Shown: piece by piece, positions 209-64,000 of the stretch
How the letters are laid out: the number at the start of each line of letters is the position of its first letter
How positions within the stretch are numbered: the first letter of the stretch is position 1
Source: an uncultured Gammaproteobacteria bacterium
Lineage (GTDB): Bacteria > Patescibacteriota > Patescibacteriia > VMEV01 > CAYQCH01
Direction: 5' to 3'
NCBI GenBank assembly: GCA_964503955.1
Contig: CAZDCG010000003.1
Coordinates: 65,522-129,521 of the forward strand
DNA length: 64,000 bases
Made by a program: the position numbers and the translations under genes
Notes under the pieces: model-generated
Seen by the model: the letters and a program-made list of their open reading frames with translations, nothing else
What the model was told of the DNA's origin: nothing
Databases searched by the model: none

Positions 209-327
209 TTCCTGTTTCCTCGCTTCGTTATCCACAGTACAATGTGAGTAGGACGAGGCGGGGAATAACCCCGTTCTTGATTGTACTTTCCAATAGTCAG
301 ACCGGCGCCCCGCCGGAGGAGATCATC

Positions 328-2373: not shown

Positions 2374-2410
2374 TGCGGCTCGGATAGAAGAACTCCCGTA
2401 AACGGGAAAC

Positions 2411-2452
2411 GCGCCTCGCAAGGTTTCAAACCATGCGAGGCGCTGTTCTTTA
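2411..2452 (+). terminator. rho-independent terminator, 10-bp perfect stem GCGCCTCGCA/TGCGAGGCGC followed by T-run
   Basis: inverted repeat 2411-2420 / 2435-2444 then tgttcttt. Confidence 0.7.
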
Positions 2453-2464
2453 TAGCGGGCTTTA

Positions 2465-2473
2465 TGGTATAAT
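2465..2473 (+). promoter_or_regulatory. extended -10 element TGgTATAAT for large surface protein gene
   Basis: TG 2465-2466, TATAAT 2468-2473, 28 nt before ATG 2502. Confidence 0.4.
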
Positions 2474-2501
2474 TTACTCTCAATCCGTGTGTGTGAGGAT
2501 T

Positions 2502-42089: not shown

Positions 42090-42590
42090 ATGAAACAACT
42101 CATTTCATTCGTGCTCGCAACAAGTCTGCTCCTTACCGGATGTATTTCAAAACTGGAAGAACCTGTTGCTTTCACGCAGGAAAATTCCGTGCAAGCCAAT
42201 CCCGAGGGGAGAAATTTTCACGTGAGAATTCCTTCCGGCACCAAGTTGGTTTTGACGGAAGAGAATGAGGCAGCCAAGCTTTATCGCGTGTCAGACGCGT
42301 CGTCGGGGATGACCTATGCGTTTGTCGAGGAGACACCGATGTCGGTGGAGCAGGCAATCTCCTTGCTTGGAAATCTTGATGAGGTGACATTGCTGGACAA
42401 GCAGGCCGTTGAACTCAACGGCTATGACGGACAAAAAGTGTATGCCGAGCTGGACCACAAAAGAGGCCAACGCGTGCCGTATTACTTTCTTCATGCGGGA
42501 AATCGAACCTATGTCTTCAGCCTGGCTGGAGGGCAGCCCTGGGAATATTTCGATGCATTCGCGCAAAGCCTTGTTTTATCGAACGAGTGA
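42090..42590 (+). CDS. lipoprotein (lipobox LLTGC), unknown function
   Basis: signal peptide plus Cys. Confidence 0.65.
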   Translation: MKQLISFVLATSLLLTGCISKLEEPVAFTQENSVQANPEGRNFHVRIPSGTKLVLTEENEAAKLYRVSDASSGMTYAFVEETPMSVEQAISLLGNLDEVTLLDKQAVELNGYDGQKVYAELDHKRGQRVPYYFLHAGNRTYVFSLAGGQPWEYFDAFAQSLVLSNE

Positions 42591-43433
42591 ACCGAGGACA
42601 GGGATATAGTGCTTGAGCTTTAGGGAAAGACTCAATTTTGGCTGCGAGAAAAGATTGTATTCTCTTTGCCGGATCGATTGTACGAGGTGGTGCTGCGTTT
42701 CAATAAGCGATGCAAAGGCGTGATGAAGCGAAGACGGCAAGTGCTTAATTTGTTTTGCGGCGGCCTGGGCTTCTTCTTCAATAAGCGCGAGATAGCGTTC
42801 CACAAGCTGCTGAAAACCTTCCGTGATGATCTGCACTTCAAAATCATGCTTGCTATAACCTATTTTTTTCATTTCTGAACGAGGCAATACGCATACAGTT
42901 CGTCGATAATCCTGCCCTGCATAGGTTAAAAGCAAAAGCAGCTCTCCATTTTTCATAAGGGTTTTGATCGCTCTGCGGCCATGCGCGTGTTTTACGTTCA
43001 GCAGGGGAGCAAGCAAATCCGTATAGGCCTGCGCAACGGCATGAACATGGCGCCGCAACTGAAGCGCATTGTCAAAATGAGGCTTTTTCTGCTGCGCGAT
43101 CCGCAATTGTGCGATTTTTGTGACGCGTTTGGGTGGTAAATGGAAAATTTTGCAGGTATGAACCACCGCGTGCATATAGGCATTTGAACAATGATCGGTT
43201 TTCATTGCTTCTTCAAATATTGTTTTCCAGGAGCGCATGGCCGCAGCCTGCTCCTTTTTTGTCACGCCGTGTTTTGGGTTATGCAGCATCTCAAGAAGAA
43301 TCCGGTCATAGGCAAAAATTCCATGCAGATGCGGTTGGATCTCCTTGGGCAGCAGATGAAGGGTATGATGCAATTTGGTGCCGTAGTGCCGGTTCAGCTG
43401 GCGGCATTCTTCAAAGCTTTGTGTTAAAGACAT
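42576..43433 (-). CDS. squalene/phytoene-synthase-fold protein lacking the Asp-rich catalytic motifs (possible pseudoenzyme)
   Basis: CRQLNRHYGTKLHHTLHLLPKEIQPHLHGIFAYDR resembles the CrtB/HpnD N-terminal signature. Start set at ATG 43433 (MSLTQ) because the longer ORF would run through xerC. Confidence 0.4.
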   Translation of the reverse strand: MSLTQSFEECRQLNRHYGTKLHHTLHLLPKEIQPHLHGIFAYDRILLEMLHNPKHGVTKKEQAAAMRSWKTIFEEAMKTDHCSNAYMHAVVHTCKIFHLPPKRVTKIAQLRIAQQKKPHFDNALQLRRHVHAVAQAYTDLLAPLLNVKHAHGRRAIKTLMKNGELLLLLTYAGQDYRRTVCVLPRSEMKKIGYSKHDFEVQIITEGFQQLVERYLALIEEEAQAAAKQIKHLPSSLHHAFASLIETQHHLVQSIRQREYNLFSQPKLSLSLKLKHYIPVLGSLVR

Positions 43434-43434
43434 G

Positions 43435-44406
43435 TCAGTTGTTTTTCGTTTTTTTTCTGGAACGATCGTGAAAGGCCTTATGCACGTCACGCAATTGCTG
43501 GTTGGTGATATGCGTATAGATCTGCGTGGTGGTAATGCTTGAATGGCCAAGCATAGATTGTACGGATCGGATATCCGCTCCATTGAGCAGCAAGTCAGTG
43601 GCAAACGAGTGGCGGATCGTATGCGGGGTGACATGCTTGGTGATGCCTGCTTCGCGGGCATATTTCTCAACCATGCGCTGGACGCTGCGCGGGGTGAGCG
43701 GCATATATTCGGCCGACCGCTTGCTCGCGCGGTCATGGCGTACAAAGAGAAACAGGGCATCATCATTCCTTGCGTCAAAATATTCTTTCAGTGCGTAACG
43801 CGCCGCGTGCGAGAGAAAGGCTACGCGCAGCTTCCGTCCTTTTCCACGAACGGTGAACTCATCTTTTTTGAGATTCACTGAATCGCGCTTCAGGCTGACA
43901 AGCTCCGAGACGCGCAAGCCGGCGCTGAACAAAAGTTCCAAAATAGCTTTGTCCCGGAGTTTGAGGATTTTGGCCTGCTTCGATTTCAGCGGAGCTTCAA
44001 GAAACGCCTGCAAGTCGCTGCCGTCAAGAAAGTCCACCTGCCGTTCAGGGATTTTGCCAAGCTCAATTTTTTCGGGAGCCATGGTTTTTACGTCGCGCTT
44101 GGCAAGATATTTCAACCAGGAACGGAGCGCGACCAAATGGTAATTCTTCGTATTCGATTTTAATCCATCGCCTTGTTGATTTGTTTGTTCGTTCAGCCAG
44201 AGGCGATACCGTTTCACCAGATTTTGATCGATGTCCTTTGGATGTTTGGCACCCTTCGCTTTTGCAAAACCGACAAATCTGCGCAAATAGAAATCGTAGT
44301 TCTGAATGGTTTGCGGGCTCCGCTCTTTCTCAAGTTCCATGTATTCCAAGAAGTCGGTAACGGCGCGATCGAGCGGGGAAGAAGTTGTTTTTGTTTGCGT
44401 CGACAT
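43435..44406 (-). CDS. xerC: tyrosine recombinase XerC/XerD family
   Basis: R..HxxR..Y catalytic signature HTIRHSFAT...LGHSSITTTQIYTH. Confidence 0.9.
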   Translation of the reverse strand: MSTQTKTTSSPLDRAVTDFLEYMELEKERSPQTIQNYDFYLRRFVGFAKAKGAKHPKDIDQNLVKRYRLWLNEQTNQQGDGLKSNTKNYHLVALRSWLKYLAKRDVKTMAPEKIELGKIPERQVDFLDGSDLQAFLEAPLKSKQAKILKLRDKAILELLFSAGLRVSELVSLKRDSVNLKKDEFTVRGKGRKLRVAFLSHAARYALKEYFDARNDDALFLFVRHDRASKRSAEYMPLTPRSVQRMVEKYAREAGITKHVTPHTIRHSFATDLLLNGADIRSVQSMLGHSSITTTQIYTHITNQQLRDVHKAFHDRSRKKTKNN

Positions 44407-51859: not shown

Positions 51860-52234
51860 ATGAATGTAAATTCAGTCACATTGATCGGACACCTTACGCA
51901 GGATCCGGTTTCAAAAGCCTACGGAGATAACCAGGCTTTAACGAAGTTCAATCTGGCCACCAATGGCCGGACAAGAGGCAAGCAACATGACGCGGCGGAG
52001 TTCCATACAGTTATCACTTTTGGCAAGCTGGCGGAAATCTGCAAGGAATATCTCAGGAAAGGCAGACTGGTCTATGTCAACGGACGTTTAAAAACATCTC
52101 GCTGGAAGGATGACAAAGAGGTCCTTCACACCAAAACCGAAATCATCGCCAATGAGATGCTGCTCCTTGATAAGAAACATGCTTTGGCAAGCGCTGCTTC
52201 CGAGGAGGCGGTTGCCGCTGAGGCGCACAGCTGA
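51860..52234 (+). CDS. ssb: single-stranded DNA-binding protein
   Basis: OB-fold MNVNSVTLIGHLTQDP; start at internal ATG. Confidence 0.8.
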   Translation: MNVNSVTLIGHLTQDPVSKAYGDNQALTKFNLATNGRTRGKQHDAAEFHTVITFGKLAEICKEYLRKGRLVYVNGRLKTSRWKDDKEVLHTKTEIIANEMLLLDKKHALASAASEEAVAAEAHS

Positions 52235-52482
52235 TCGACTGCGCAGCTGCATTCTTTGAGGAGCGACGGCGTGCGACTCAAAGAAGGAGATCAGCCTTGG
52301 AGAAATTTCCGCGTTGATTATTGTGTCCATAGGAGCCATAATCCAAAAAACGATCATGGCGGACCAGGTCGACGGTAAATTTCTCCATCCCTCTCGCGGT
52401 TATGCTTGATAACGGGGTGTGGGCAGAAACCGTTTATCATTATCCTTCATGACCGCGGGAGAGATGCGTTAACTTTCATCAT

Positions 52483-53256
52483 ATGCATAAACATGTTCTG
52501 ATCACGATGTTCTTTTTTGGGGCTGTACTAACGTTAAGCGGTTGCCAGTTAATCCGCCAGAGCTCTGAGGCAGACGAGCTGGTTCAGTCTGAACAGCAGG
52601 CAAGCCATCCTGAATTGTCTGGCGAGATGCTGCTTGATGGCCAGCACTATCAGTTGGTTCTTACAAAACAGCCGGCTGGAGCAAGCTTCTTTCTATCAGG
52701 CAGAGAACTCTGCTTTGAACAAAATCCAACCCAGAGCGAATTGGCAGAGTTAGAGTTCATTGTTCTGAAAAAACAATCAGGTGGTACCCGCGAAGTAAAC
52801 GGAACGCTGCTTTCTGGCGCATTTGCCGAGAAAGGCTGTCTGCTCTTTGAGAAGATTGTTTCTTCACAACAGATCATCTTTTCCCTGAGAACGGGAGATG
52901 GTCTTGCGAGCACAAAAGAGTATTTCAGCCTGGCCGGGACACAATCGGAATCGTTGTACCTGGTACGCAGCTGGGAAACCATGGATGACGAAGGCGTTGT
53001 TGAGTATACGGCCTGGGTTGTCGCAAACAGATACTTTCTACAGGCAAAGGCAGGAAAAGACGGCGGATCGGTTTTCAGGGGAGCAAATCCAAGCATTTCA
53101 TCCGGCCATTTTATGCTTGAGCCGGAGGGGGAGGTCGTTTTGCAAACAAATCAGCCGCTTGAGTTTAACGCACTTGATGAACGCAATATCAACGGATATA
53201 AAAACGGTTTGACCTTTAAGCATGCCGGACAGGATATCACGCTAGGGTGGGAGTAG
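52483..53256 (+). CDS. lipoprotein (LTLSGCQ), unknown function
   Basis: lipobox. Confidence 0.6.
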   Translation: MHKHVLITMFFFGAVLTLSGCQLIRQSSEADELVQSEQQASHPELSGEMLLDGQHYQLVLTKQPAGASFFLSGRELCFEQNPTQSELAELEFIVLKKQSGGTREVNGTLLSGAFAEKGCLLFEKIVSSQQIIFSLRTGDGLASTKEYFSLAGTQSESLYLVRSWETMDDEGVVEYTAWVVANRYFLQAKAGKDGGSVFRGANPSISSGHFMLEPEGEVVLQTNQPLEFNALDERNINGYKNGLTFKHAGQDITLGWE

Positions 53257-53353
53257 GTTTCTGCTCTCCGAACCGGCCTGCCCCGGCTCGGAGTACGCCT
53301 GTACTCTCATCGGAGAAATCTGATGCGTCCTTTTAACATCGAGGAGATGCATC

Positions 53354-55687
53354 ATGCCGCGAGCCATCTTGGCTTTGCTCCTGCTTGGATCCTTGCCAGG
53401 CACCTGCCTGGCCCAGGCCGAGCGATGCGCGTTTTATGCGCAGAACCCTTCCCTCATTCAGGTGGGGCAAGGGCAAGTCATCGAGCGCGAGGTGGAAATC
53501 GTCTACACCAATACGGGGACATCCACCTGGCAGAGGACGGGAGGTGTTTCTAATCTCTCGTACATCGAGCTGCGCGCGGTCAATCAGCAAGGAGCCGTCA
53601 TCGACGGCCCGCTCTACCATCCTACCTGGATCAACCGCCAGCGCGTGGGGTCGTATCTCAGCATTCAGGGCGGGGTTGCTCCTTCGCAGCGCGCCAGATT
53701 CGTGTTCAAGGTTCTCGTGGATGGTTCAATACTCGCGCCCGGATCGCATGATTTCTACTTCCGCCCATATCATGCGAGCGGAGGATATATCAGCGACTGG
53801 GGCGGCTGCCATATCACCGTGACGGTGACACAGGGCGGGGCTACGCAGCCTCAGGTTCCTGCCGCGACCATCCTCTCCATCACGCCCAATCCGGCCGCAA
53901 GCGGTCAAGCGGTTTCGATCTCCGGTTCAGCAACGAATCAGCCGATCGAGTATCGATGGGAAAGCCAGGGGCAACTCCTGTCTGATCAAGCGTCCTTTTC
54001 GCGCGTATTCGCTTCCGGCGTGCATCAGATTGGTTTTCGCGCCAGAAACGCGCAAGGCTGGGGTACTTGGCAATACGCCACGCTCACGGTCAACAGCCCG
54101 TCGCCAACTTCCCAGCAATCCTACATCGACCAGGTGCTCGTGCCTCAGGTCGAGTACGCGGGGCCGGGGACGGTCGGACAGCCGGTCAACCTGGTTACGT
54201 CCGCCGCCGAGGTGCGCAAGTACCATGAGCTGCAGCTGGCTGGTCACGGGGTTCCGTCTTCAACAGGGCACGAATGGTTCGTGCGCCAGAACGGCCAGAT
54301 CAAGCCGGTTGCTACTCAGGCTGCTGCTATCGTGAACACGGCTGACTTCTTTGACGGACAGCAGGAGCTGCTCTACCGGACGCGCGGCGCGAACGGAGTC
54401 TGGAGCAGCTACGCGGTCCTGCCGATCAATGTCAGTCCCTGGCCGAAGCTGATCCCGCCGGTGCATGGTTCCTGGGCGCGAAGCGGCAACGATTACGGGG
54501 AGGGGGATCATACTCGGTCCGGCTCATACGACCATCTCCACGCGCAGGATTACAACCAGGCGAATGGAGAACCGGCCAATGCGGATTTCGGGCGTGAAAT
54601 CATCGCGCCGCTTTCCGGCAAGGTGACTGCTCTTGGCGCATCGGCCAACGGAGGCCGGTATGTGACCATTGAGTCATCCGACTCCGGTGTTCTGTACCGC
54701 GCATCGTTTTACCATCTCATGACGATAGCCGTCGAACAGAATGAGGTGGTTGCGCAGGGGCAGCCTATCGGTCTTTGCGGTAATACGGGACAGGCTTCCA
54801 CCGGATCGCATCTGCATTATGTGCTGCATCGCCAGCAAGGCGGGGCATGGGTTTCGGTTGCGCCCGAGCCGGTCTGGGTGGAACCCGCCCGGCTTGAGCA
54901 AAGCATCCCGCATGACTGGCAGCGCGATATTCGCGCAAACAGCCGAGTCTTGCCAAGCAGCTTGCTGATCCTTCAGGAGCAGGTCAGCGGTGGGGTGACG
55001 GATATGCACGGCTGGGGGCATGTGATGAAATACGCGCCAACGGTTTCCGGCCAGCCCACGGCGAGCCAGATCCTGCAGTGCGTTATCCCCGTTGCCGGGC
55101 GATGGAAGCTCTTTGCGCATAACCCAAGCGGTTTTACCAATAGCAATGCTGGATCGCCCGCTCACAATACGAGCGGAAAGGCAGTATTTGAGGTGACCAG
55201 ATCCTCGCAGCCAGGTCCTGCTACGCATGAAGTAGACCAGCACAATGGGGAAAAGGGAGCGCTGGTGTTCATCTGCGAAATCGATGCGCAGCAAGGAGAA
55301 ACCCTGATGATCCGGCAGCACAATGCAACCGGGGAACAGGGTAAGGAAGTTGCTTTTGACGAGCTCATCCTCAAGCTCGTGCATGCTTCTGGAGCAGGAG
55401 GAGGAGGTTCTGGAGGCGGATCCTCAAGCGGGGGATCTTCTTCCGGCGGGGGTTCAGGTGGAACATCTCCCTCAAACCCGCCTTCTCCACCGCCACCGCC
55501 CCCACCTTCATCTTCTTCGTCTTCTCCATCTCAAGGAGGTGCCGCAACGACTCCATCAGCAGGCGGGGGAGGCGGCGGTGGTGGCGGATGCAGCATGAGC
55601 AGCTCGGGCGGTCCGTCGTCTGCCTCGCTCTCGCTGCTCATCTGCAGCCTGTTTCTCGTTTTCGTCTTCAGGAGAGTCATCTCCTAA
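53354..55687 (+). CDS. GC-rich secreted M23/LytM-family metallopeptidase with long N-terminal domains and Gly/Ser/Pro-rich tail ending in a hydrophobic helix plus RR
   Basis: GGAG RBS; HxxxD and HLHYVLH M23 motifs; C-terminal GGGGGGGGGCSMSSSGG...LFLVFVFRRVIS. Confidence 0.75.
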   Translation: MPRAILALLLLGSLPGTCLAQAERCAFYAQNPSLIQVGQGQVIEREVEIVYTNTGTSTWQRTGGVSNLSYIELRAVNQQGAVIDGPLYHPTWINRQRVGSYLSIQGGVAPSQRARFVFKVLVDGSILAPGSHDFYFRPYHASGGYISDWGGCHITVTVTQGGATQPQVPAATILSITPNPAASGQAVSISGSATNQPIEYRWESQGQLLSDQASFSRVFASGVHQIGFRARNAQGWGTWQYATLTVNSPSPTSQQSYIDQVLVPQVEYAGPGTVGQPVNLVTSAAEVRKYHELQLAGHGVPSSTGHEWFVRQNGQIKPVATQAAAIVNTADFFDGQQELLYRTRGANGVWSSYAVLPINVSPWPKLIPPVHGSWARSGNDYGEGDHTRSGSYDHLHAQDYNQANGEPANADFGREIIAPLSGKVTALGASANGGRYVTIESSDSGVLYRASFYHLMTIAVEQNEVVAQGQPIGLCGNTGQASTGSHLHYVLHRQQGGAWVSVAPEPVWVEPARLEQSIPHDWQRDIRANSRVLPSSLLILQEQVSGGVTDMHGWGHVMKYAPTVSGQPTASQILQCVIPVAGRWKLFAHNPSGFTNSNAGSPAHNTSGKAVFEVTRSSQPGPATHEVDQHNGEKGALVFICEIDAQQGETLMIRQHNATGEQGKEVAFDELILKLVHASGAGGGGSGGGSSSGGSSSGGGSGGTSPSNPPSPPPPPPPSSSSSSPSQGGAATTPSAGGGGGGGGGCSMSSSGGPSSASLSLLICSLFLVFVFRRVIS

Positions 55688-55981
55688 AGACAGGGAGGGT
55701 AAGTCTTCTGAACTTGCCCTCCTTTTCACATTCTGCGGATATAGATCGAGCTGCTCCTCTTCAGACGGATGGATGGGCAAGCAGGTACCTGATACCTCAA
55801 GCGTTACAGCTGGATTCGAGATTCATCCGCGCCGTTAGTGCTCCAGCGTAGTGGAAAAAGCTTTCTTCTCAACGAATATAGTTAAATGCCTCTAAATCGT
55901 TGATTTTTTCGATATTCATTGCCAGCCCGGTTTCAAGGAGGTATAGTGATTCTGCGCCGTCGTTAATATCGAGGTGGCTTT

Positions 55982-56869
55982 ATGAATATCCTGGCAATAA
56001 TTCCCACAAGCAAACAGGAGGCCGTTGAATGGGTCGAGCAATTACCTGAGTTGAAGCTGTTTACTCAGGTGAAAGCCATGACCATTCCCTGGCATCAAAC
56101 AGGCATTGGCACGACACAGGACTGGATTGAGCTTGTCCGGGCTGTTGCTGCGCATGCGGATGCAGATGGTTTTATTGTCTGGGCTCCTGATCAATCATTG
56201 CTTGAAACGGCGGGGCTCTTGCAATTATCATTGCGGACTCCAGGGAAGCCGGTTATTGTTTTTTCCGCGCCCGCTCCGGAAAAATTGAACGGGAAAAAAT
56301 TTGAAAAACTCGGATTAAAAGCCACGCTCGTGCGCGCGGCATTTCTTGCGCAGTCGGATCTTGGCGAGGTGGTTATTTTAAACGGCGAACAAGTTTTGCG
56401 TCCGTCTCAGTGCGCTGCTTTGCTTGAGCATGGGATACGTCTTCATGAAGAACAGCCGCTGGCGTCTGTCAGCTTCAAGTTGGAATTTCATCAAGCGTAT
56501 GTAAAACGAAGTCAAACTCCGATGATTGCCGACCTTCCAGCAACCTTGGTTGAAGAAGCCAGGCCGATTGAATGGTCGCCAGCGCTTCCATTCAAGGGAC
56601 AGGAAACACCGGCTATTCCGCTTATTCGTTTTCAGCCAAGCCATTGGCATGTGCAGCCGCTTCAAACGCTTCGCAGGGAATTGCTTGAAAAACGAAAGGC
56701 AATCGTTTGGCATACGGACCAGCCCTTTGCCCCCGGTGAGCTGGATGCTCGGGAGCGGGTTTTAGACAACCGGGCGAACTGGTGGGCGGCATTGACTTGG
56801 CAGTATGCCTATTCGTTGAATCCGGAAAACCCATTAGCGGTTCTGGATGCATTGAATCAACAAGTATGA
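55982..56869 (+). CDS. asparaginase-fold protein with catalytic threonines replaced (TGGTIAG becomes IPTSKQE, HGTDT becomes WAPDQ): probable non-catalytic asparaginase-like domain protein
   Basis: collinear similarity to type II asparaginase N-domain (DGFIVWAPDQSLLETAGLLQLSLRTPGKPVIVFSAP). Confidence 0.5.
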   Translation: MNILAIIPTSKQEAVEWVEQLPELKLFTQVKAMTIPWHQTGIGTTQDWIELVRAVAAHADADGFIVWAPDQSLLETAGLLQLSLRTPGKPVIVFSAPAPEKLNGKKFEKLGLKATLVRAAFLAQSDLGEVVILNGEQVLRPSQCAALLEHGIRLHEEQPLASVSFKLEFHQAYVKRSQTPMIADLPATLVEEARPIEWSPALPFKGQETPAIPLIRFQPSHWHVQPLQTLRRELLEKRKAIVWHTDQPFAPGELDARERVLDNRANWWAALTWQYAYSLNPENPLAVLDALNQQV

Positions 56870-57378
56870 ACATCTCTCTTTTAGAAACAGCCTGGATTCA
56901 TGATGAAAATGGTACCGGACTTGAAGGAATGCTCAAGTCGCTTGGGGCGCGCGTGCATGATGCCCGGGAAATGGAAGCCGGCATGGAGCGGATTGATGCC
57001 CTTGTCATCGGTTCGGCAGCAGACGCAAAGGCAAAATATTTAGTCGCCTTGGCAAGCTCGCAGAAGAAACCTGTTTTATGGATCGTGCGTGACAAACGAG
57101 AAGAGCAAGGAATAAAAAAAACGTTTTCAACAGTTTCAGATCTCGTTGTGGTTCGGTTTGATCCACAAACCCTCAGCGAAGCGTGTAAACGATTTTTCGC
57201 GCAGCATGCTACTATTGAGGAGAAGCCGACGATAAAGTTTACCTTGCGCATTACCCCCGCAATGGATAAATACCTGCAGTGGAAAAGCAAGCAAACCGGT
57301 TTATCCAAAGCCGATTTCTTGCGTGAAACAATCCAGTCGCAGATTATCGATCAGGATCAAGCCTATACAAACGAGTAA
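56866..57378 (+). CDS. protein with C-terminal ribbon-helix-helix (CopG/MetJ-like) domain
   Basis: ATGA overlap with upstream gene; KFTLRITPAMDKYLQWKSKQTGLSKADFLRETI. Confidence 0.5.
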   Translation: MNISLLETAWIHDENGTGLEGMLKSLGARVHDAREMEAGMERIDALVIGSAADAKAKYLVALASSQKKPVLWIVRDKREEQGIKKTFSTVSDLVVVRFDPQTLSEACKRFFAQHATIEEKPTIKFTLRITPAMDKYLQWKSKQTGLSKADFLRETIQSQIIDQDQAYTNE

Positions 57379-57380
57379 TT

Positions 57381-58118
57381 ATGGCCGTGGAGGCGCCGGA
57401 AAGAATCAAAAGCAATTTAGACGACGCTCGCAATCGAGCGGCGCGGCCTTCGCCGTCAAATCAGCAGGCGGACCGGCCGGGCAATCTGTCGCCTTCTCTT
57501 GAAGGAGGACTCGGAACGCCATTGCCGTCTTTTCCTGCGGCCTCATCACAAAATCCGCAAACACAGCCGCAAGATGCTCAGCAGGAGGGCGCGCAGAGGA
57601 TGAGGGCAACTCTGGAAGGTGTCCGCAATCAGGCTCGGGCAAAACAAAACGGAGAAACCAAAGAAGAACAGAAGAAAACAAAAACTTCGCAGGCTGCATC
57701 GATTGATCTGAAGGATTTTTTCCGCCGTTCGATTGGGTTTGCTTTGCTGGGTTTGGCTTACGACCTGCTCATGGCCGCCCTGGATTTTCTTTTGGGACTG
57801 GGCTCTATTGTCAGCATTCCCGGTAATTTTGTCATGTGGGGAATTTACTGGTTCCGAGTCTGGAGATTTATGCCTAAATCCCTGAGAGGAAACGGGATGC
57901 TCGAATTCAGTAAAGCGCGTAAACATTTTGCGTTGAACATGATTATTGAAACCATTCCAATCGTTGGCCAAATCTGGCTGGGATGGTTTGGCATCGGGCT
58001 AGATGCTTATATCATGGTTTCGCGCGAGAAAAAGAAGCAGGATCTTGCGCAAGGCGGAGCTAATGGGGAGAAAAAAGCAGGCAACGGCAAAGGGCAGCCG
58101 CAAGCCGCTAAATCATGA
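57381..58118 (+). CDS. membrane protein with Pro/Gln-rich N-terminus, unknown function
   Basis: start 3 nt after upstream stop; 3-4 TM. Confidence 0.55.
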   Translation: MAVEAPERIKSNLDDARNRAARPSPSNQQADRPGNLSPSLEGGLGTPLPSFPAASSQNPQTQPQDAQQEGAQRMRATLEGVRNQARAKQNGETKEEQKKTKTSQAASIDLKDFFRRSIGFALLGLAYDLLMAALDFLLGLGSIVSIPGNFVMWGIYWFRVWRFMPKSLRGNGMLEFSKARKHFALNMIIETIPIVGQIWLGWFGIGLDAYIMVSREKKKQDLAQGGANGEKKAGNGKGQPQAAKS

Positions 58119-58620
58119 GCAGGCGGATAAAGACCTCGGCGTTGATTTTGACATCCTCAAGCGCACGATGCGCTTTTGAATAGTCGATGCCAAACTCGCC
58201 GGCCAGCGTTCCTAAACGATGCGACCCCAGATGGGGCATTTTTTGTCTGGAGAGATCCAGTGTGTCAATCAGCGAGTTTTCAACGGGAGCAAGACCGAGC
58301 TGGAGCAGGTGGCGGTTAAGAAATTTCATGTCAAAATCGCGAATATTATGGCCCACAAGCGTGGTGTCGGAAATAAACTCAATGAATTCCGGAATCACCT
58401 GATTAAGCGGCTGCCCATGTTTGGCGATAAATTGGTCGGTGAGCCCATGAATTTTGATCGTTTCCGGATGAGAGGGGATGCCTGTGTGGATAAATCGCTG
58501 GAACTCGGCAAGATGATTACCTTGTTTGTCGATGCGCAGAGCGGCAATTTCAATAATCGCGTCACCTAAATGCGGGTAAAGACCTGTTGTTTCGGTATCA
58601 AAGACAATAAATTGTTCCAT
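58108..58620 (-). CDS. DEDDh 3'-5' exonuclease (DnaQ/epsilon-like)
   Basis: Exo I FDTETTG, Exo II, Exo III H...D. Internal ATG 58620 chosen because the ORF-track start overlaps the divergent promoter. Confidence 0.75.
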   Translation of the reverse strand: MEQFIVFDTETTGLYPHLGDAIIEIAALRIDKQGNHLAEFQRFIHTGIPSHPETIKIHGLTDQFIAKHGQPLNQVIPEFIEFISDTTLVGHNIRDFDMKFLNRHLLQLGLAPVENSLIDTLDLSRQKMPHLGSHRLGTLAGEFGIDYSKAHRALEDVKINAEVFIRLLMI

Positions 58621-58698
58621 ACGTAAGTTGGTATTGGTTGAACTATTATGAACCACATCATGCGCGCAGACAAGCTCTTGGTTCAGCTTAGGAAAACA

Positions 58699-58707
58699 TG
58701 GTATAAT
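58699..58707 (+). promoter_or_regulatory. extended -10 TGgTATAAT for the T4SS-like operon
   Basis: read directly; the ORF-track TTG start lies inside it. Confidence 0.45.
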
Positions 58708-58736
58708 TGCACTCGAAAAGGACATTTTTTCCGTGC

Positions 58737-61394
58737 ATGAATAAAAAGAAAAAAATAGGTTTTTTGCTTTTGTTAGCTGCGTTGTTTGTCACGGGCAGTC
58801 TTTTTGCTCATGTTGAACCTGCACATGCAATCATTCCTACCCTGGAAGATGCTGCAAAAGCTTCTGTAGCGCCTTTTCTGGTACTCATAGCCAGTATTCT
58901 TTACTTTATATTGCGCGCCGTCACATGGCTTGGCTCCTTTGCGGTGGATGCGTTGCGCATCGTAACTTCGTACAACCAGTTTAACATTGAAGAGGTACAG
59001 ATTGGATGGAGGATCGTGCGCGATATCATCAATAGTTTCTATATTGTAGTTCTGATTGCGATCGCGATATCCACGATTATCCGCTTCCAAAAATTCGATT
59101 TTCGTCAGACGCTTCCAAGACTTCTGATTTCGGCAGTTTTAGTGAATTTCAGCTTTTCCATTTGCCTCTTGGCGATCAATTTCACTAGCTCGGTAATGTT
59201 CACCTTTGTTCGTGGTATTGACCAGTCGTGGCCTGGTTTGCTTATTGGATTGCGCGCTCCTCAGATTACGGCATTGGGGGCAGGCACGCTTGGACCCTTG
59301 AGTGTTGAAGGTTTGGAAAACGCAGCGAGAGAACCATTAGGATACTTAAATGCCATTGTCGCGGTGCTGTTCGGGATTGTTATTATGGGCATCGCAATCT
59401 TTGCGATGCTTACATATCTTCTCATTCTCGTCGTTCGCATTGTGGTGCTATGGCTTCTCATCATTCTCTCTCCATTGGCCTTCTTTTTATGGGGGACGCC
59501 AGGGAGAGCGCAAAATTATTGGGGGGATTGGCTGGGTGAATTCATCAAGGCACTTATTACAGGGCCGGTACTTATGTTCTTTTTATATCTTAACATTATG
59601 TTTTTTGTTGAGAATGCAGCCGATCCTGCTCCCTACGGTTTTAATATCGCAGCTAGCCAGCTTTCAAGCCAGGGCACTGTAACCGCAATAGGGAGCGTGG
59701 GAGCGCTCTTCCCGTTCATAGTAGGTATCACATTGATGTTCGCCGGTCTTGAAATTGCCAATAGTCTCGGCGCCCGCGGAACGGCTTTTGCTCAGAATGC
59801 CTCTAAGAAACTATTGAGCGCGCCGCTGAAATATGCGGGGCGGAAGCTTCAAGAATACGATTCCAAACGATATAAGGATGATAAGTTCAGTGTACAGTCT
59901 GTCATGCAAGGACTTGCGACTCTCAGTGGAGCAAGCGATGCAAAAATCAAAGCGAATATCGCAGAAGGGCAGCGCAAACGGCAGGAGCTCGCTGGGAAGC
60001 TCCCTGCGGGTGTTGGGCAGTATGTTAAGGGGCTTACCGGCGGAAGTGTTGACCTTACAAAAGATGTAAATGCTTTATTTGGTGAAGATAGTCTTTTAAA
60101 GCGAACGGGAAAAAGCATTGTTGGTATAGGGGATAAAAATTGGAAAAATCTGGATGCTTTGACGGATGAACGGAGCAAGCTGCAAAGCAGACAGCTCTCA
60201 AGAAAATTATTGGCAAATGCGGAGCCCGGGGATTTAGTTAAAACCAGGGCCGATCTTGAAAACGAAATCGGTCAAAGGAATGGTTCAATCCAATTACATC
60301 AAAATCAGCTCTCGGAAATTCGTCGTTTAGAGGAGCTTAATGACAAATATTACAATCAGCGGATCCCGCTTAGCGATCAGGAGAAAATGGAATATAAGCA
60401 GCTTGAATCCAGTCTGGATGTAAATGGAGCAGAGAAAGAAGACATGCAGCGCCTTGCTGCCGAAGCTGCGGAACACGAACAAACTATTGAAGAACTCGAA
60501 GCCAAAAATAGAGAACAAAATGAATTGGCTACCACACTTAAAGCGGCAGGTATTTCAGACGAACAAACTGCGGGGCAATTCAAACAGGAAGTTGATTCGG
60601 CTTATATCTCGGATGATGCTCGTGAGAAGGAACTCCAAAAGGTTATCAGAGGTCGCCGCCAGCAGCTGCAGGCTATTAGATCAACCCAACGGCATAATGA
60701 TCGCAAAGCGGAAAAAGAATATCGCGATGTCGCTTATGAAACCAATGAGCGATATCCTGAAGAGTATATCTTTGCGCAGGCTCTTAGTAATGCCACGAAT
60801 AAAAATCAAATTGAATTTGGAGCTGATCTTGTCAAGGCGGCGGACCAAGGCATGTTTGATAACATTGTGCTCAAAATCATGAAAGAGCAGATGGATATCG
60901 ACAATCCGGTGCTGGATGAACAAGGTATGAAAACATTTGTAGATAAATATATGGTTGAAAAAGTAGGAATGAGAAAACAGCAGGCGCTCGATGTCATTAC
61001 ACGTGTCAGTGGCAGAAATCAGGCCGATTTTCACCCAACGCAATCGTTCTTTACCAAAATGGACGATTCGGGAGATTATCGCTTGTCTTCCAAAACTGAA
61101 CGCAGTGAAATGATTCAAAAAACAATTGAGAAAAAGCTCAAAGCCGTTCTCACAAAAGGCGGAGCAGATGGTATTACCATTCGTGATAAGACTGGCAAGA
61201 AAGTGATCCACCCTGCTGTTCGCAAGGCGTTTAAAGAGCAATCAGGAACGCTTAAACAAGTTTTACAGGATCAGCGTTTCTACACGGATCTCGAACGAGA
61301 AGTGGCTGTCATGTTGCGCCAGGAGGCTAATGCCTCTGGTATACCGGACAGTGAGATCAAAGGCTTCGTGGATTCATTGACCTCAACTTCTTAA
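58737..61394 (+). CDS. polytopic membrane protein with large coiled-coil C-terminal domain; PrgH/TcpH/VirB6-like conjugation/T4SS channel component
   Basis: signal peptide, 6 or more TM, long charged C-terminus; operon with PrgI-like gene. Confidence 0.5.
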   Translation: MNKKKKIGFLLLLAALFVTGSLFAHVEPAHAIIPTLEDAAKASVAPFLVLIASILYFILRAVTWLGSFAVDALRIVTSYNQFNIEEVQIGWRIVRDIINSFYIVVLIAIAISTIIRFQKFDFRQTLPRLLISAVLVNFSFSICLLAINFTSSVMFTFVRGIDQSWPGLLIGLRAPQITALGAGTLGPLSVEGLENAAREPLGYLNAIVAVLFGIVIMGIAIFAMLTYLLILVVRIVVLWLLIILSPLAFFLWGTPGRAQNYWGDWLGEFIKALITGPVLMFFLYLNIMFFVENAADPAPYGFNIAASQLSSQGTVTAIGSVGALFPFIVGITLMFAGLEIANSLGARGTAFAQNASKKLLSAPLKYAGRKLQEYDSKRYKDDKFSVQSVMQGLATLSGASDAKIKANIAEGQRKRQELAGKLPAGVGQYVKGLTGGSVDLTKDVNALFGEDSLLKRTGKSIVGIGDKNWKNLDALTDERSKLQSRQLSRKLLANAEPGDLVKTRADLENEIGQRNGSIQLHQNQLSEIRRLEELNDKYYNQRIPLSDQEKMEYKQLESSLDVNGAEKEDMQRLAAEAAEHEQTIEELEAKNREQNELATTLKAAGISDEQTAGQFKQEVDSAYISDDAREKELQKVIRGRRQQLQAIRSTQRHNDRKAEKEYRDVAYETNERYPEEYIFAQALSNATNKNQIEFGADLVKAADQGMFDNIVLKIMKEQMDIDNPVLDEQGMKTFVDKYMVEKVGMRKQQALDVITRVSGRNQADFHPTQSFFTKMDDSGDYRLSSKTERSEMIQKTIEKKLKAVLTKGGADGITIRDKTGKKVIHPAVRKAFKEQSGTLKQVLQDQRFYTDLEREVAVMLRQEANASGIPDSEIKGFVDSLTSTS

Positions 61395-61395
61395 T

Positions 61396-62679
61396 ATGGC
61401 CGAACAAAGTCTCAAACAAAGAATTCAAAATGCTTTGACGGGGTTCAAGCCTCACGAGGCTTTTGAGCTTGTTCGAGAAGTTGAAGCATTGATCGCGCAA
61501 ACAGATCCTGGCAATCTCAGGCTTGCTGAGAATCTTGAGAATGTAAGAGCACAGTTGATTATGGTTGCGATGCGCTATTACAAGGAAAAAGATCTGGAGC
61601 GTGTCTTTGAAAACAGGGTCGCCGGTATCCTGAACTTGCCAGAGGATGTCGATCTCGTCGAATTGTTCAAAAACCGGCTTGCTTCAGAAAGCCTTTTAGA
61701 CGATAAAAATAGCTTAAAAAAAACCATCAAGGGTGCTATTGAACGGAGCGTTCAACGTCTTGGTTCATCAGACATCAGTCTAGGAACGGAGATCGTTAAG
61801 CCAACTGTGCAGAATTGGGTAAAAGTCTATACATCAGAAGTGGGCAGCAACAGAGCTGGAGCAGTCGAAATTGCGAGATTCTTCTCCAAAAATCCTGATG
61901 TTCAAAAACTGTCATCCTTAGATGCATCACGGCTTCGCAGATTGCTTCGCTTCTACGAATATTTGAAAATCGATGCGGATGAAATTGAGGGGTATGATCA
62001 GGTGTACCTTCTCGATGACCCGAACATTGGATTGGTTGCGCTTGATGATACCGGGGCCACACCTATTTTTACGGAAACAGTCTTGCGAGAATTGGAAAAT
62101 CAGGCTCGCAACGGTGAATTGTCTGCCGTAGACTTATCACAATTGCAGGTTCAATTTCCAGAACGATTCGATCGATATAAACCGAAGCGGCTTCCTGGTG
62201 ACGAGTTTACAGATGATACTTTGCAACAGCTCACGGAAACATACTTTCAAACAATGAAAGAACGTTACACAAATAGCAGTACGATCAAGGCAAAAAGCAA
62301 ATATAGTCCATTGCTTTCCAGCTTAGCCGTCACCCAGATGAATCCTGCGATTGAACATATTATTGAGCTTTTATCAAAGCATCTCTCAGATCGTTCATCG
62401 CTTTCAACCTTGTTGAATAACCCAGAGGTAAAGATCGCAGTTCTGAAGAGATTAGGGGCGAAAGACCAACAACTCATCAACCAGCAGCCGTTTCATCCCG
62501 TTGCATTGCAGGAATTTTTGCGAGCCCTCTTTGAAGGTGAATTAGGCTTAACGGAAGAAGAGAGTCTCTGGCGTTCTTACTTATTGCTCTCAAGGTTGCC
62601 GCTTACCCTCAAAGACTTCAAAACCATCGTTTCCTACGATGTTGCACAAAACCAGCTTGTCTGGCGGCATCAAACCTGA
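61396..62679 (+). CDS. hypothetical protein (427 aa) in T4SS-like operon
   Basis: tight coupling, 1 nt after upstream stop. Confidence 0.5.
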   Translation: MAEQSLKQRIQNALTGFKPHEAFELVREVEALIAQTDPGNLRLAENLENVRAQLIMVAMRYYKEKDLERVFENRVAGILNLPEDVDLVELFKNRLASESLLDDKNSLKKTIKGAIERSVQRLGSSDISLGTEIVKPTVQNWVKVYTSEVGSNRAGAVEIARFFSKNPDVQKLSSLDASRLRRLLRFYEYLKIDADEIEGYDQVYLLDDPNIGLVALDDTGATPIFTETVLRELENQARNGELSAVDLSQLQVQFPERFDRYKPKRLPGDEFTDDTLQQLTETYFQTMKERYTNSSTIKAKSKYSPLLSSLAVTQMNPAIEHIIELLSKHLSDRSSLSTLLNNPEVKIAVLKRLGAKDQQLINQQPFHPVALQEFLRALFEGELGLTEEESLWRSYLLLSRLPLTLKDFKTIVSYDVAQNQLVWRHQT

Positions 62680-62698
62680 GTTTGTTACAATCAACTAT

Positions 62699-63730
62699 AT
62701 GGATCACGGACCAAAACACCAGCATTCATCAGATGACATTATCATCAGGGATCAGGACGGCACTTACAAAATCCTGAAGGATGGGAAATTCGTGCCGCTT
62801 GATGAAGCTGCCGCGCAACATGTTGCCGACGAACAACCGGATGGTCCCAAGCGTGGCGTTGAGGAAAAGAAAAAGCCTCTGCCGGATTTTGCCAGAATGA
62901 ACAAAGAACGCATGCAACAGAAAGCGGCAAATGAGCAGCCAGTCCAAAAACCGGAACCTAAAGCTGCGTCTGAACAGCAAAAAGCAGAAGCTATTCTTGC
63001 GCAAAGCAAGGTGACATTCGCCAGCACGCAAATCCGTCAGCGCGTGCTCAATGCGTTGGTGGCGCATATGAAAGGAGTACGCAAACCGTTTGAAACCCGC
63101 CAGCAGCTGGCAAAATCCGTTGCTGAAGGCGGCGCGGGCCTTGAAGCCGCAGAAGTAGAACGCATCATGACCGCAGCCGGAGGCGGCAGGGTGGAGGAGC
63201 GCCCGGAAATGGATATCAGCAGAACCAAGCAGCCGGTTAATGAAGTCATGCCTGCCAAACGGCCGCCTGTCGCTCAGGATATTTTTGCTCCCACGGCGGT
63301 AAAGCCCATGCAGGAAGAGCCGGTTTATCAGATCCCTTCAAAGCCGGCACCTGCTGTTTCAGCACCGGCTGTGGCTCCAAAACCGCGTGTGGCGGACGTG
63401 CAAAAACCTGCCCGGGCCGTGGTAGGGCTTTCCGGCCAGCTTTCCTACAGCCTTGCCGACTGGAGGCGCGTGGCGGTGCAGCCAAAAGACCGGGTAAAAA
63501 AGATTGAAACTCAGCTTGATGTTCTTGAGCAGGAAGGATTGCCCGAGCGGCTTCGGGGTCTGCAGGCTTGGCGCTCAAGCGAAGTGATGCGCATGTATTT
63601 GGAATCAGGCAAAGAAAGTCTTGAACAGGGCACGCCTTTGCAGCAAATGCTTGGCGCCGGAAAGCCGGACGCGCTTTCCTGGGATGAATGGACGGCCATT
63701 GCTGAACTTAATGAGCGATTAAAATACTGA
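62699..63730 (+). CDS. hypothetical Pro/Ala/Gln-rich protein in T4SS-like operon
   Basis: start uncertain; ATG 62699 chosen to avoid overlap. Confidence 0.4.
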   Translation: MDHGPKHQHSSDDIIIRDQDGTYKILKDGKFVPLDEAAAQHVADEQPDGPKRGVEEKKKPLPDFARMNKERMQQKAANEQPVQKPEPKAASEQQKAEAILAQSKVTFASTQIRQRVLNALVAHMKGVRKPFETRQQLAKSVAEGGAGLEAAEVERIMTAAGGGRVEERPEMDISRTKQPVNEVMPAKRPPVAQDIFAPTAVKPMQEEPVYQIPSKPAPAVSAPAVAPKPRVADVQKPARAVVGLSGQLSYSLADWRRVAVQPKDRVKKIETQLDVLEQEGLPERLRGLQAWRSSEVMRMYLESGKESLEQGTPLQQMLGAGKPDALSWDEWTAIAELNERLKY

Positions 63731-63732
63731 TA

Positions 63733-64000
63733 TGCAGTATACCGTTCCGCAATTTATTGATCAGGAGGACAAAATCATCGCCTTCATTACCGTGCGGCAA
63801 TTTTTGATCATGATTGTGGCGGCTATTTTCATGGCAATCTGTTACGCTTTGCTCCGATTCGCGTACTTTGTTGCCGCCTCCGTTGTCATCGCTCTCATCA
63901 CGGGAGTGGTGGCTTTCCTGAAAGTGAACGGACGGCCCTTTCATTTCTTCCTGATCAGCTATATCGAGCGCATGAAGAAGCCGAATGTGCGTGTCTGGAA
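63733..64000 (+). CDS. PrgI/VirB3-like small membrane protein (partial, runs off window)
   Basis: MQYTVPQFIDQEDKIIAFITVRQF matches the PrgI-family N-terminus, followed by a TM helix. Confidence 0.55.

What the first reader, a model, noticed from the sequence alone, without database searches (positions are those of the whole stretch)
58699..64000. Gram-positive-type T4SS-like module (PrgH/VirB6-like polytopic protein, two unknowns, PrgI-like) running off the window
The 885-aa product has a signal peptide, 6 or more TM helices and a roughly 500-aa coiled-coil tail. The last ORF begins MQYTVPQFIDQEDKIIAFITVRQF followed by a TM helix, as in PrgI/VirB3-family proteins, which normally precede a VirB4 ATPase. 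Together with separate PilB and PilT genes, this indicates DNA-uptake or host-interaction machinery.
Basis: partly seen in the sequence, partly recalled or inferred. Interest (0 to 1): 0.55.

Follow-up and report, generated by a model that had tools for sequence, protein, structure and literature searches.

The report
Patescibacteria-type type IV secretion operon

Summary
Window 58737-64000 carries four tightly packed same-strand genes:
- an 885-aa polytopic membrane protein;
- two soluble unknowns of 427 aa and 343/363 aa;
- a PrgI/VirB3-family gene that runs off the window (Pfam PF12666, 34.3 bits against a cut-off of 27).

Public contigs with identical DNA continue the operon. PrgI is 159 aa. 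It is followed by a 231-aa TrsD-like protein that resembles the N-terminal part of VirB4, then a 656-aa VirB4 ATPase (NCBIfam CD1110 family, 344 bits against a cut-off of 325), then a bitopic membrane protein.

The gene order is conserved in Uhrbacteria, Komeilibacteria and other Patescibacteria loci. In those loci a ComFC gene follows. No relaxase, coupling protein or integrase is present in the window or in the related loci I examined, and the flanking genes are housekeeping genes.

This matches the Patescibacteria T4SS described by Wang 2023 and Quinonero-Coronel 2025, so it is a new member of a known kind. Its substrate is unknown. I favour nucleic-acid trafficking over effector export, weakly.

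The parts
58699..58707 (+). Extended -10-like promoter motif TGgTATAAT, 29 nt upstream of the first gene of the module
   Evidence: Read directly from the sequence. The consensus scan did not list it because the -35 is weak. Function is not shown.
58737..61394 (+). 885-aa 'extended VirB6'-like polytopic membrane protein. It has a signal-like N-terminus, a transmembrane bundle at about residues 36-343, long helices at 453-666 and a folded alpha/beta C-terminal domain at about 650-885.
61396..62679 (+). 427-aa soluble protein of unknown function. It belongs to a large uncharacterised family whose members share the N-terminal domain (about residues 20-210).
   Evidence: It has no transmembrane segment and no Pfam, NCBIfam, PHROG or PDB hit. 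An exhaustive HMMER search found 504 cluster representatives at E<=1e-3, mostly matching residues 20-210. Homologues sit in the same position in L004 and L005 (E 1e-63 to 1e-66). In L007 and L009 they are part of a longer protein.
62699..63730 (+). 343-aa soluble protein (363 aa from the upstream ATG at 62639). It has a small beta N-terminal module, two confidently modelled helical domains (90-160 and 245-343) and disordered proline/alanine-rich linkers. It is related to the 427-aa protein's family.
   Evidence: 25 homologues were found, none with a Pfam domain. The AlphaFold model has pLDDT above 90 in the two helical domains. No Foldseek PDB match is better than E 4. hhalign of A3 against A4 gives probability 99%, E 9.5e-18. 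The C-terminal 65 residues equal the extension that longer relatives of the 427-aa protein have and the 427-aa protein lacks. It is conserved between virB6-like and prgI in L004, L005, L008, L010 and L011.
63732..64000 (+). PrgI/VirB3-family small membrane protein, cut by the window end. It is 159 aa in full on identical contig L001.
   Evidence: Pfam PF12666 PrgI scores 34.3 bits (cut-off 27) on the 89 residues inside the window and 32.0 bits on the full protein. It has a transmembrane helix at residues 23-41. Homologues precede the TrsD-like gene and virB4 in five related loci and in a Pontibacillus plasmid.
58108..58725 (-). DnaQ-like DEDDh 3'-5' exonuclease, divergently transcribed from the module. 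The true start is probably the ATG at 58617. It is a possible associate, linked by synteny only.
   Evidence: PF00929 RNase_T, E 5e-31. The same divergent neighbour of the virB6-like gene occurs in L004 and L005 (E 1e-91 to 1e-93).
53354..55687 (+). 777-aa secreted and membrane-anchored M23 peptidase. It is a candidate cell-wall-remodelling (VirB1-like) partner; this is an inference.
   Evidence: PF01551, E 9e-15. It has a signal peptide and a C-terminal transmembrane segment. It is conserved upstream of the module in L004 (E 4e-206). An M23 endopeptidase follows virB4 in the Pontibacillus locus. PMC12102498 reports M23 domains in Patescibacteria VirB1-like proteins.

Best explanation
This is the 5' half of the chromosomal type IV secretion operon typical of Patescibacteria (the candidate phyla radiation). 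It is a monoderm system related to the Gram-positive MPF-FATA conjugation machinery. I infer a non-conjugative role from the lack of any relaxase, coupling protein or integrase nearby.

Gene content, shown by sequence:
- an extended VirB6-like polytopic protein;
- two lineage-specific soluble proteins;
- PrgI/VirB3;
- a VirB4 ATPase split into a TrsD-like N-terminal protein and a 656-aa ATPase;
- a bitopic membrane protein with VirB8-like architecture.

Mechanism, inferred from what is established for T4SS (R388, pCF10):
- VirB4 hexamers dock on the membrane through PrgI/VirB3 and the VirB6-like channel protein.
- ATP hydrolysis then drives assembly and the passage of a macromolecule across the single membrane at the contact site with a host cell.
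- The long tail of the VirB6-like protein is most likely cytoplasmic, judged by the positive-inside rule (about 70% likely).
- Together with the two soluble proteins, the tail would form a cytoplasmic platform. That platform could stand in for the missing coupling protein.

Substrate and direction are not known for any member of this kind. In four related loci the operon runs straight into comFC, and no relaxase, coupling protein or integrase is nearby. I therefore favour nucleic-acid trafficking, most likely uptake as in H. pylori ComB or archaeal Ced. I put that at about 0.35, effector export at about 0.3 and conjugation below 0.1.
For: Identity:
- PrgI scores above the Pfam cut-off.
- VirB4 scores above the NCBIfam CD1110 cut-off, and its best PDB match is 4AG5.
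- The 231-aa protein matches positions 92-233 of VirB4 model NF045975 (E 3.6e-11) and the 656-aa protein matches positions 265-893 of the same model, so together they look like a split VirB4. The 231-aa protein also hits TrsD weakly.

Same organism: the window is identical to L001 over 52000-64000. L014 overlaps L001 over 2,534 bases with no mismatch.

Conservation: the order VirB6-like, unknown(s), PrgI, TrsD-like, VirB4, bitopic protein, ComFC holds in L005, L008, L010 and L011. L004 keeps the order as far as its contig reaches. The named relatives are Uhrbacteria, Komeilibacteria and Patescibacteria.

Chromosomal and non-conjugative:
- The surrounding genes are IF-2, GyrA, FtsH, TsaD, PNPase, RNase III, S1 and SSB.
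- No relaxase, VirD4 or integrase domain appears among the roughly 40 larger ORFs of the window that I scanned.
- None appears among the roughly 1.2-4.4 kb of genes after virB4 in L005, L010 and L011.

Literature:
- PMC12102498 describes this repertoire (VirB4 clade next to MPF-FATA, abundant TrsD, PrgI, VirB6, rare relaxases, coupling protein elsewhere in the genome). It also reports comF, recG and radA near the T4SS in class ABY1.
- PMC10633639 shows the system is essential for epibiotic growth of S. epibionticum.
- PMC11665869 raises nucleotide or DNA uptake as a candidate role.
Against: - ComFC linkage is seen only in relatives. The window organism's sequence ends inside the bitopic gene, and an exact-match scan for more sequence found nothing.
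- In S. epibionticum the T4SS is essential but comEC is dispensable, so a ComEC-dependent uptake route cannot be the essential function there.
- No VirB2-like pilin array was seen among small intergenic ORFs of the window, unlike the Saccharimonadia loci.
- The VirB8-like assignment of the bitopic protein rests on architecture only. It has no Pfam, NCBIfam or meaningful PDB hit.
- The topology of the tail is inferred from charge bias only.
Confidence: 0.85

Rival explanations
1. The machine is the same, but it works outward. It would deliver effector proteins, or assemble a pilus-like conduit, into or onto the host bacterium to extract nutrients, as speculated for Saccharibacteria.
For: Most non-conjugative T4SS export proteins, and some (Ptl, Brucella VirB) lack a coupling protein. 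Wang 2023 and the 2024 PNAS perspective list effector delivery as a leading idea. A 2026 preprint reports tubular structures at the parasite-host interface that may be T4SS pili. The window also encodes very large Ig-like surface proteins plus PilB and PilT, which fits a host-attached lifestyle.
Against: No candidate effector, chaperone or VirB2-like pilin array lies in or next to this module. The conserved downstream partner in relatives is ComFC, a DNA-uptake protein, not a secreted protein.
Confidence: 0.3
2. It is the mating-pore module of an integrated conjugative element or plasmid remnant of Gram-positive origin, which exports DNA by conjugation.
For: VirB4, PrgI and the TrsD-like protein are homologous to conjugation proteins of Bacillota and Actinomycetota. 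VirB4 falls in the CD1110 family. The PrgI-TrsD-VirB4 order is shared with a Pontibacillus plasmid locus. GC content is slightly lower in 60-62 kb (0.44 against about 0.50).
Against: No relaxase, coupling protein, integrase or replication gene was found among the scanned larger ORFs of the 64-kb window or downstream in relatives. The housekeeping flanks and the module's position are conserved between distinct genomes. In 2,474 Patescibacteria virB4 loci, relaxases were close to virB4 in only 15 cases. The Pontibacillus plasmid itself is typed non-mobilizable.
Confidence: 0.07
3. It is a decaying or non-functional remnant. On this view the split VirB4 and the split 427/363 gene pair are pseudogene-like fragments.
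For: VirB4 is encoded as two ORFs. The 427-aa and 363-aa proteins correspond to one longer protein in L007 and L009.
Against: The split is conserved with intact ORFs across divergent genomes. TrsD-like E values are 1e-74 to 1e-123 and VirB4 E values 1e-169 to 1e-229. TrsD is the most abundant T4SS component in the phylum and is essential in S. epibionticum. Walker A and a Walker B-like motif are intact. The family alignments keep many invariant residues.
Confidence: 0.03

Closest known systems
Patescibacteria (CPR) T4SS as described by Wang et al. 2023 (S. epibionticum SEML1_0006-0019) and Quinonero-Coronel et al. 2025 (PMC12102498), in particular the class ABY1 arrangement
   Same: It is chromosomal and of monoderm type. 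It has VirB6, VirB3/PrgI, TrsD and VirB4, with no relaxase or coupling protein nearby. comF is linked in relatives, as reported for ABY1. The relatives of the 885-aa protein are Uhrbacteria, Komeilibacteria and Parcubacteria-group MAGs.
   Different: No VirB2-like pilin array or lysozyme/peptidase genes lie inside the cluster here, unlike Saccharimonadia. Two soluble lineage-specific proteins sit between virB6 and virB3. The VirB6-like protein has a tail of about 500 aa. I did not find these last two features described in the papers I read.
Gram-positive MPF-FATA conjugation systems (pCF10 Prg/Pcf, pGO1 Trs, C. difficile CTn CD1110 type)
   Same: It has a PrgI-family VirB3, a TrsD-like protein and a CD1110-family VirB4 (344 bits against a cut-off of 325). 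It has no outer-membrane core. The PrgI-TrsD-VirB4 order matches a Pontibacillus plasmid locus.
   Different: No relaxase, coupling protein (PcfC/VirD4), PrgK-type hydrolase or PrgB-type adhesin lies in the cluster. The VirB6-like protein has no sequence similarity to the polytopic protein of the Pontibacillus locus. The context is chromosomal and housekeeping.
VirB6/TrbL family, including 'extended VirB6' proteins (PF04610; TrwI of R388, PDB 7o3v/8rt9)
   Different: It has no direct profile hit. It has more hydrophobic segments (about 7 plus a signal-like segment). The C-terminal alpha/beta domain has no recognisable relative.
DNA-uptake T4SS-like machines: H. pylori ComB and crenarchaeal Ced
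   Same: The resemblance is functional only: a VirB4-type ATPase, a polytopic membrane protein and a small VirB3-like protein without relaxase or coupling protein. ComFC is linked in relatives. There are weak partial NCBIfam matches of VirB4 to CedB (E 1e-13) and CedD.
   Different: ComB has the diderm components VirB7, VirB9 and VirB10. Ced uses CedA/A1/A2. There is no orthology beyond the ATPase superfamily. Import has not been shown for any Patescibacteria T4SS.

Membership tests
PrgI / VirB3 family (Pfam PF12666) | Score above the Pfam gathering threshold | tested here: met
   34.3 bits against 27 on the in-window fragment, and 32.0 bits on the full 159-aa protein.
PrgI / VirB3 family (Pfam PF12666) | Small membrane protein encoded just upstream of virB4 | tested here: met
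   It has a transmembrane helix at residues 23-41. The TrsD-like gene and virB4 follow within 1-10 nt on identical contigs L001 and L014.
VirB4 ATPase (NCBIfam NF045971, CD1110 family; MPF-FATA type) | Score above the curated cut-off, with intact Walker motifs | tested here: met
   344.4 bits against 325, with GAGKS and a VIDEAW motif present. The PDB match is 4AG5, E 2.3e-44. The gene lies just outside the window, on DNA identical to it.
TrsD/TraD family (NCBIfam NF041427) | Score above the curated cut-off | tested here: not met
   21.4 bits against 200 (E 1.8e-4). The better description is a free-standing N-terminal VirB4-like domain: NF045975 positions 92-233, E 3.6e-11. A precomputed Pfam label, PF26593 TraC-like, is attached to it.
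VirB6 / TrbL family (Pfam PF04610) | Direct profile match | tested here: not met
   No Pfam or NCBIfam hit at E<=0.1.
VirB6 / TrbL family (Pfam PF04610) | Homology to proteins that carry the domain, over the same region | tested here: met
   P0024 has TrbL at 102-304 (26.3 bits against 25.9) and aligns to residues 80-351 of the window protein, E 3e-28. P0030 scores 32 bits.
VirB6 / TrbL family (Pfam PF04610) | VirB6 fold | tested here: inconclusive
Patescibacteria-type T4SS (PMC12102498) | virB4 together with VirB3, VirB6 and TrsD genes in one chromosomal cluster of a Patescibacteria genome | tested here: met
   The organism is assigned only through its homologues, which are Uhrbacteria, Komeilibacteria and Parcubacteria-group MAGs. 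No rRNA gene is in the window.
Patescibacteria-type T4SS (PMC12102498) | VirB4 falls in the Patescibacteria-specific clade that is sister to MPF-FATA | not tested
   No phylogeny was built. The closest plasmid VirB4 proteins are 28-36% identical and come from Bacillota and Actinomycetota.
Conjugative element (ICE or plasmid) | Relaxase and a VirD4/TcpA-type coupling protein linked to the mating-pore genes | tested here: not met
   None was found among the window's larger ORFs or downstream of virB4 in L005, L010 and L011. The rest of the genome was not available.
Conjugative element (ICE or plasmid) | Integrase or boundary next to a tRNA gene, in a non-housekeeping context | tested here: not met
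   The flanks are SSB, PNPase, a protease and an M23 peptidase. The nearest tRNA genes are about 17 kb upstream.
VirB8-like (NTF2-like) component | Bitopic protein with an N-terminal transmembrane segment and an NTF2-like ectodomain | tested here: inconclusive
   The protein after virB4 has an N-terminal transmembrane segment and a conserved C-terminal domain of about 120 aa. It has no Pfam, NCBIfam or meaningful PDB hit.
ComB/Ced-type DNA-import system | Demonstrated import, plus the specific ComB2-10 or CedA/B components | not testable with these tools
   Only weak ATPase-level similarity to CedB and CedD, and ComFC linkage in relatives.

The most novel reading that the evidence does not exclude
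In this ABY1-like lineage the T4SS may be a nucleic-acid import machine, working like ComB or Ced. On this reading, the cytoplasmic tail of the extended VirB6 protein and the two paralogous soluble proteins (the 427-aa and 343-aa proteins, whose family has at least 504 cluster representatives) would replace the coupling protein. They would act as the substrate-handling platform and pass incoming nucleic acid to the co-transcribed ComFC and perhaps to the adjacent DnaQ-like exonuclease. That would explain how organisms without nucleotide synthesis feed on host DNA or RNA.
Probability: 0.25. Interest if true: 0.7.

Novelty: new member of a known kind. Interest (0 to 1): 0.3.

Why it matters
The Patescibacteria T4SS is the first T4SS shown to be essential for its owner's growth, and its substrate is still unknown. 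This locus adds one more example and does not change that picture.

Three modest additions could guide experiments:
- a clear case of VirB4 encoded as two consecutive genes;
- an extended VirB6 with a confidently folded C-terminal domain of unknown type;
- a large uncharacterised soluble-protein family that sits, as a paralogous pair here, between virB6 and virB3.

The conserved run-on into comFC in relatives is the best genomic hint available for a nucleic-acid substrate.

Tried and rejected
- Direct Pfam, NCBIfam and PHROG scans of the 885-, 427- and 343-aa proteins gave nothing.
- PDB sequence searches with profiles of all three families gave nothing meaningful.
- Foldseek of the 343-aa model against the PDB gave no match better than E 4.
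- The word-based homologue search for the 427-aa protein found only itself. The exhaustive search was needed to find relatives.
- The first attempt to scan genomes with the 29-sequence alignment failed because it had no conserved stretch. It was repeated with 13 closer sequences.
- The window's own genome was not found among the related loci returned by the scan of GTDB species representatives. The NCBI 162-kb contig could not be fetched.
- An exact-match scan of JGI metagenomes for sequence beyond the bitopic gene found nothing, so comFC linkage in this organism is unverified.
- BLASTP of the TrsD-like protein against VirB4 from the same operon showed no similarity. The two are consecutive parts of one model, not paralogues of each other.
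- A search for VirB2-like small two-transmembrane ORFs in the window's intergenic regions found none.
- The bitopic protein's only PDB sequence hit was DotF at E 0.025, through its transmembrane segment and linker. I judged this not meaningful.
- ICE and plasmid origin was considered and rejected on context.

Full report
**What is in the sequence**

Window 58737-64000 carries four same-strand ORFs separated by 1, about 19 and 1 nt:
- an 885-aa protein (ATG at 58737; the longest ORF starts at a TTG at 58707);
- a 427-aa protein (61396-62679);
- a 363-aa ORF (62639-63730). The alignment to homologues begins at about residue 19-25, which suggests the true start is the ATG at 62699, giving 343 aa;
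- an ORF from 63732 that begins MQYTVPQFIDQEDKIIAFITVRQF and runs off the window.

A TGgTATAAT extended -10-like motif lies at 58699-58707.

The 885-aa protein has a KKKK/hydrophobic/AHA signal-like N-terminus and 6-7 more hydrophobic segments before residue about 340. Its tail is not a uniform coiled coil. The AlphaFold model (mean pLDDT 73) shows four helices of about 40 residues each between 453 and 666. A compact alpha/beta domain at about 650-885 (pLDDT above 90) follows.

**Extending past the window**

Two public contigs carry the same DNA. L001 is identical to the window over 52000-64000. L014 overlaps L001 over 2,534 bases without a mismatch. They give the rest of the operon:
- PrgI, 159 aa;
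- a 231-aa protein;
- a complete 656-aa VirB4 ATPase with Walker A GAGKS;
- the start of a bitopic membrane protein.

**Family assignments**

- PrgI passes the Pfam gathering score (34.3 bits against 27).
- The 656-aa protein passes the curated cut-off of NCBIfam NF045971, 'VirB4-like conjugal transfer ATPase, CD1110 family' (344.4 bits against 325). Its best solved relative is the Thermoanaerobacter VirB4 4AG5 (E 2e-44).
- The 231-aa protein matches positions 92-233 of the Mycoplasma ICE VirB4 model NF045975 (E 3.6e-11). The 656-aa protein matches positions 265-893 of the same model. VirB4 is therefore encoded as two consecutive genes. The first is the 'TrsD-like' protein that PMC12102498 reports as the most abundant T4SS component of Patescibacteria. 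It does not reach the TrsD family cut-off (21 bits against 200).
- The 885-aa protein has no direct Pfam, NCBIfam or PHROG hit. It has 33 homologues, and the few with organism names are Patescibacteria; the more distant ones carry TrbL_3 or TrbL.
  - P0024 has PF04610 TrbL above its cut-off at residues 102-304. It aligns to residues 80-351 of the window protein at 31% identity, E 3e-28.
  - The top Foldseek PDB hit is R388 TrwI/VirB6, but only at E 0.25.
  - I accept 'VirB6-like' as homology at superfamily level. It is not membership by direct profile.

**The two unknowns**

Both lack transmembrane segments and have no Pfam, NCBIfam, PHROG or PDB relatives.
- The 427-aa protein belongs to a large family: 504 cluster representatives at E<=1e-3, sharing residues about 20-210. 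None of the 52 members I scanned has a recurring Pfam domain.
- The 343-aa protein has a narrow set of 25 close homologues. It folds into a small beta module plus two confident helical domains joined by disordered linkers. It has no PDB fold match.

The two proteins are related. In L007 and L009 a single longer protein occupies their position and matches both. hhalign aligns the last 65 residues of the 343-aa family to the C-terminal extension that longer relatives of the 427-aa protein have and the 427-aa protein itself lacks (probability 99%, E 9.5e-18). They are best described as a split or duplicated pair from one lineage-specific family, sitting between virB6 and virB3.

**Conservation and context**

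A genome scan with the 885-aa family found nine loci. These come from Uhrbacteria, Komeilibacteria, 'Patescibacteria group' and several MAGs whose taxon labels (Gammaproteobacteria, Acutalibacteraceae) I suspect are wrong.

The order VirB6-like, unknown(s), PrgI, TrsD-like, VirB4 is kept in L004, L005, L008, L010 and L011. Wherever the contig continues (L005, L008, L010, L011), a bitopic protein of about 190 aa and then a ComF-family protein follow (TIGR00201 comF, E 1e-28). This matches the published remark that T4SS loci of class ABY1 commonly include comF, recG and radA.

The window itself is ordinary chromosome: IF-2, GyrA, FtsH, TsaD, PNPase, RNase III, S1 and SSB. PilB lies at 28206-29942 (minus strand) and PilT at 40262-41311. 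There are eight tRNA genes, the nearest about 17 kb upstream of the module.

No relaxase, VirD4-type coupling protein or integrase domain was found in the window or downstream of virB4 in relatives. No VirB2-like small membrane ORFs were seen in the window's intergenic regions.

The closest plasmid VirB4 proteins (28-36% identity) are from Bacillota and Actinomycetota. A Pontibacillus plasmid locus has the homologous PrgI-TrsD-VirB4 order, preceded by pilin-like genes and a polytopic protein and followed by an M23 endopeptidase. 'Gram-positive type' is therefore right.

**How it probably works**

Shown: the gene content, its homologies and its conserved order.

Inferred from established T4SS biology (the R388 and pCF10 systems):
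- VirB4 hexamers sit on the cytoplasmic face.
- They are anchored by VirB3/PrgI and contact the VirB6 channel protein.
- ATP hydrolysis drives assembly and substrate passage.

Loop-charge statistics across 13 family members put the basic stretch after the last transmembrane segment, and hence the 500-aa tail, in the cytoplasm. This is an inference, at roughly 70% confidence, because the parity of the N-terminal segments is ambiguous. If it is correct, the tail, the two soluble proteins, the TrsD-like protein and VirB4 form an unusually large cytoplasmic assembly in a system that lacks a nearby coupling protein.

**Function**

The role of the Patescibacteria T4SS is stated to be 'completely unknown' (PMC11665869), although the system is essential in S. 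epibionticum (PMC10633639).

I weakly favour nucleic-acid trafficking, probably uptake (about 0.35). The reasons are the conserved, apparently co-transcribed comFC in relatives, the divergent DnaQ-like exonuclease conserved in L004 and L005, and the lack of conjugation genes.

Two points count against this. ComEC is dispensable in S. epibionticum while the T4SS is essential. And comFC linkage could not be verified in this organism.

Effector export or a pilus conduit is nearly as likely (about 0.3). Conjugation (below 0.1) and decay (about 0.03) are unlikely.

**Verdict**

The module is a new member of a known kind, the Patescibacteria T4SS of ABY1-like arrangement. Interest is low to moderate.

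The small new points are the split VirB4 shown at model-coordinate level, the paralogous soluble pair between virB6 and virB3, and the folded C-terminal domain of the extended VirB6-like protein.

Noticed in passing
window 53354-55687 (+): A 777-aa M23 peptidase with a signal peptide, a long glycine/serine/proline low-complexity stretch in a 58% GC segment, and a C-terminal transmembrane anchor. It is conserved just upstream of the T4SS module in L004. In a Pontibacillus plasmid an M23 endopeptidase directly follows virB4. It may be the VirB1-like wall-remodelling partner.
   Followed up: partly
window 58108-58725 (-): A DnaQ-like DEDDh 3'-5' exonuclease, divergently adjacent to the virB6-like gene. 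The same arrangement occurs in L004 and L005. The true start is probably at 58617, which leaves a divergent promoter region of about 120 nt.
   Followed up: partly
window 56866-57378 and 57381-58118 (+): A 170-aa protein with a weak C-terminal ribbon-helix-helix match (Arc/NikA/RelB-like), and a 245-aa protein with a disordered N-terminus and a hydrophobic C-terminal half. The 170-aa protein is conserved upstream of the module in L005 and the 245-aa protein in L004 and L005. They could be a regulator and a further membrane component.
   Followed up: partly
L001 12818-13513 and L014 1319-3289 (just beyond the window end): VirB4 is encoded as two genes. The 231-aa protein covers positions 92-233 and the 656-aa protein covers positions 265-893 of one NCBIfam VirB4 model (NF045975).
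   Followed up: yes
window 42576-43778 (-): A 400-aa protein with a squalene/phytoene synthase domain (PF00494, E 3e-16). This is unexpected in a lineage thought to lack most lipid and isoprenoid biosynthesis.
   Followed up: no
window 193-5723: Two very large predicted surface proteins with PKD, Ig-like, cadherin-like and TSP3 domains (709 and 1096 aa). The first lies in a 61% GC stretch that is open on both strands (244-2373 on plus, 193-2421 on minus).
   Followed up: no
window 9374-10609 (+): A 411-aa stand-alone PIF1-like helicase next to tRNA genes and a DEAD-box helicase. No relaxase domain is attached.
   Followed up: no
L005 13719-14993; L010 13754-14928; L011 17144-18523: After virB4 in relatives comes a conserved bitopic protein of about 190 aa (an N-terminal transmembrane segment and a conserved FVERFGSYS motif, giving a VirB8-like architecture). 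A ComF-family phosphoribosyltransferase then follows with little or no gap.
   Followed up: partly
L004, L005, L006 and L008 record titles: MAGs that carry clear Patescibacteria-type T4SS loci are labelled 'uncultured Gammaproteobacteria' or 'Acutalibacteraceae' in their public records. These labels are probably wrong, or reflect mis-binned contigs.
   Followed up: no
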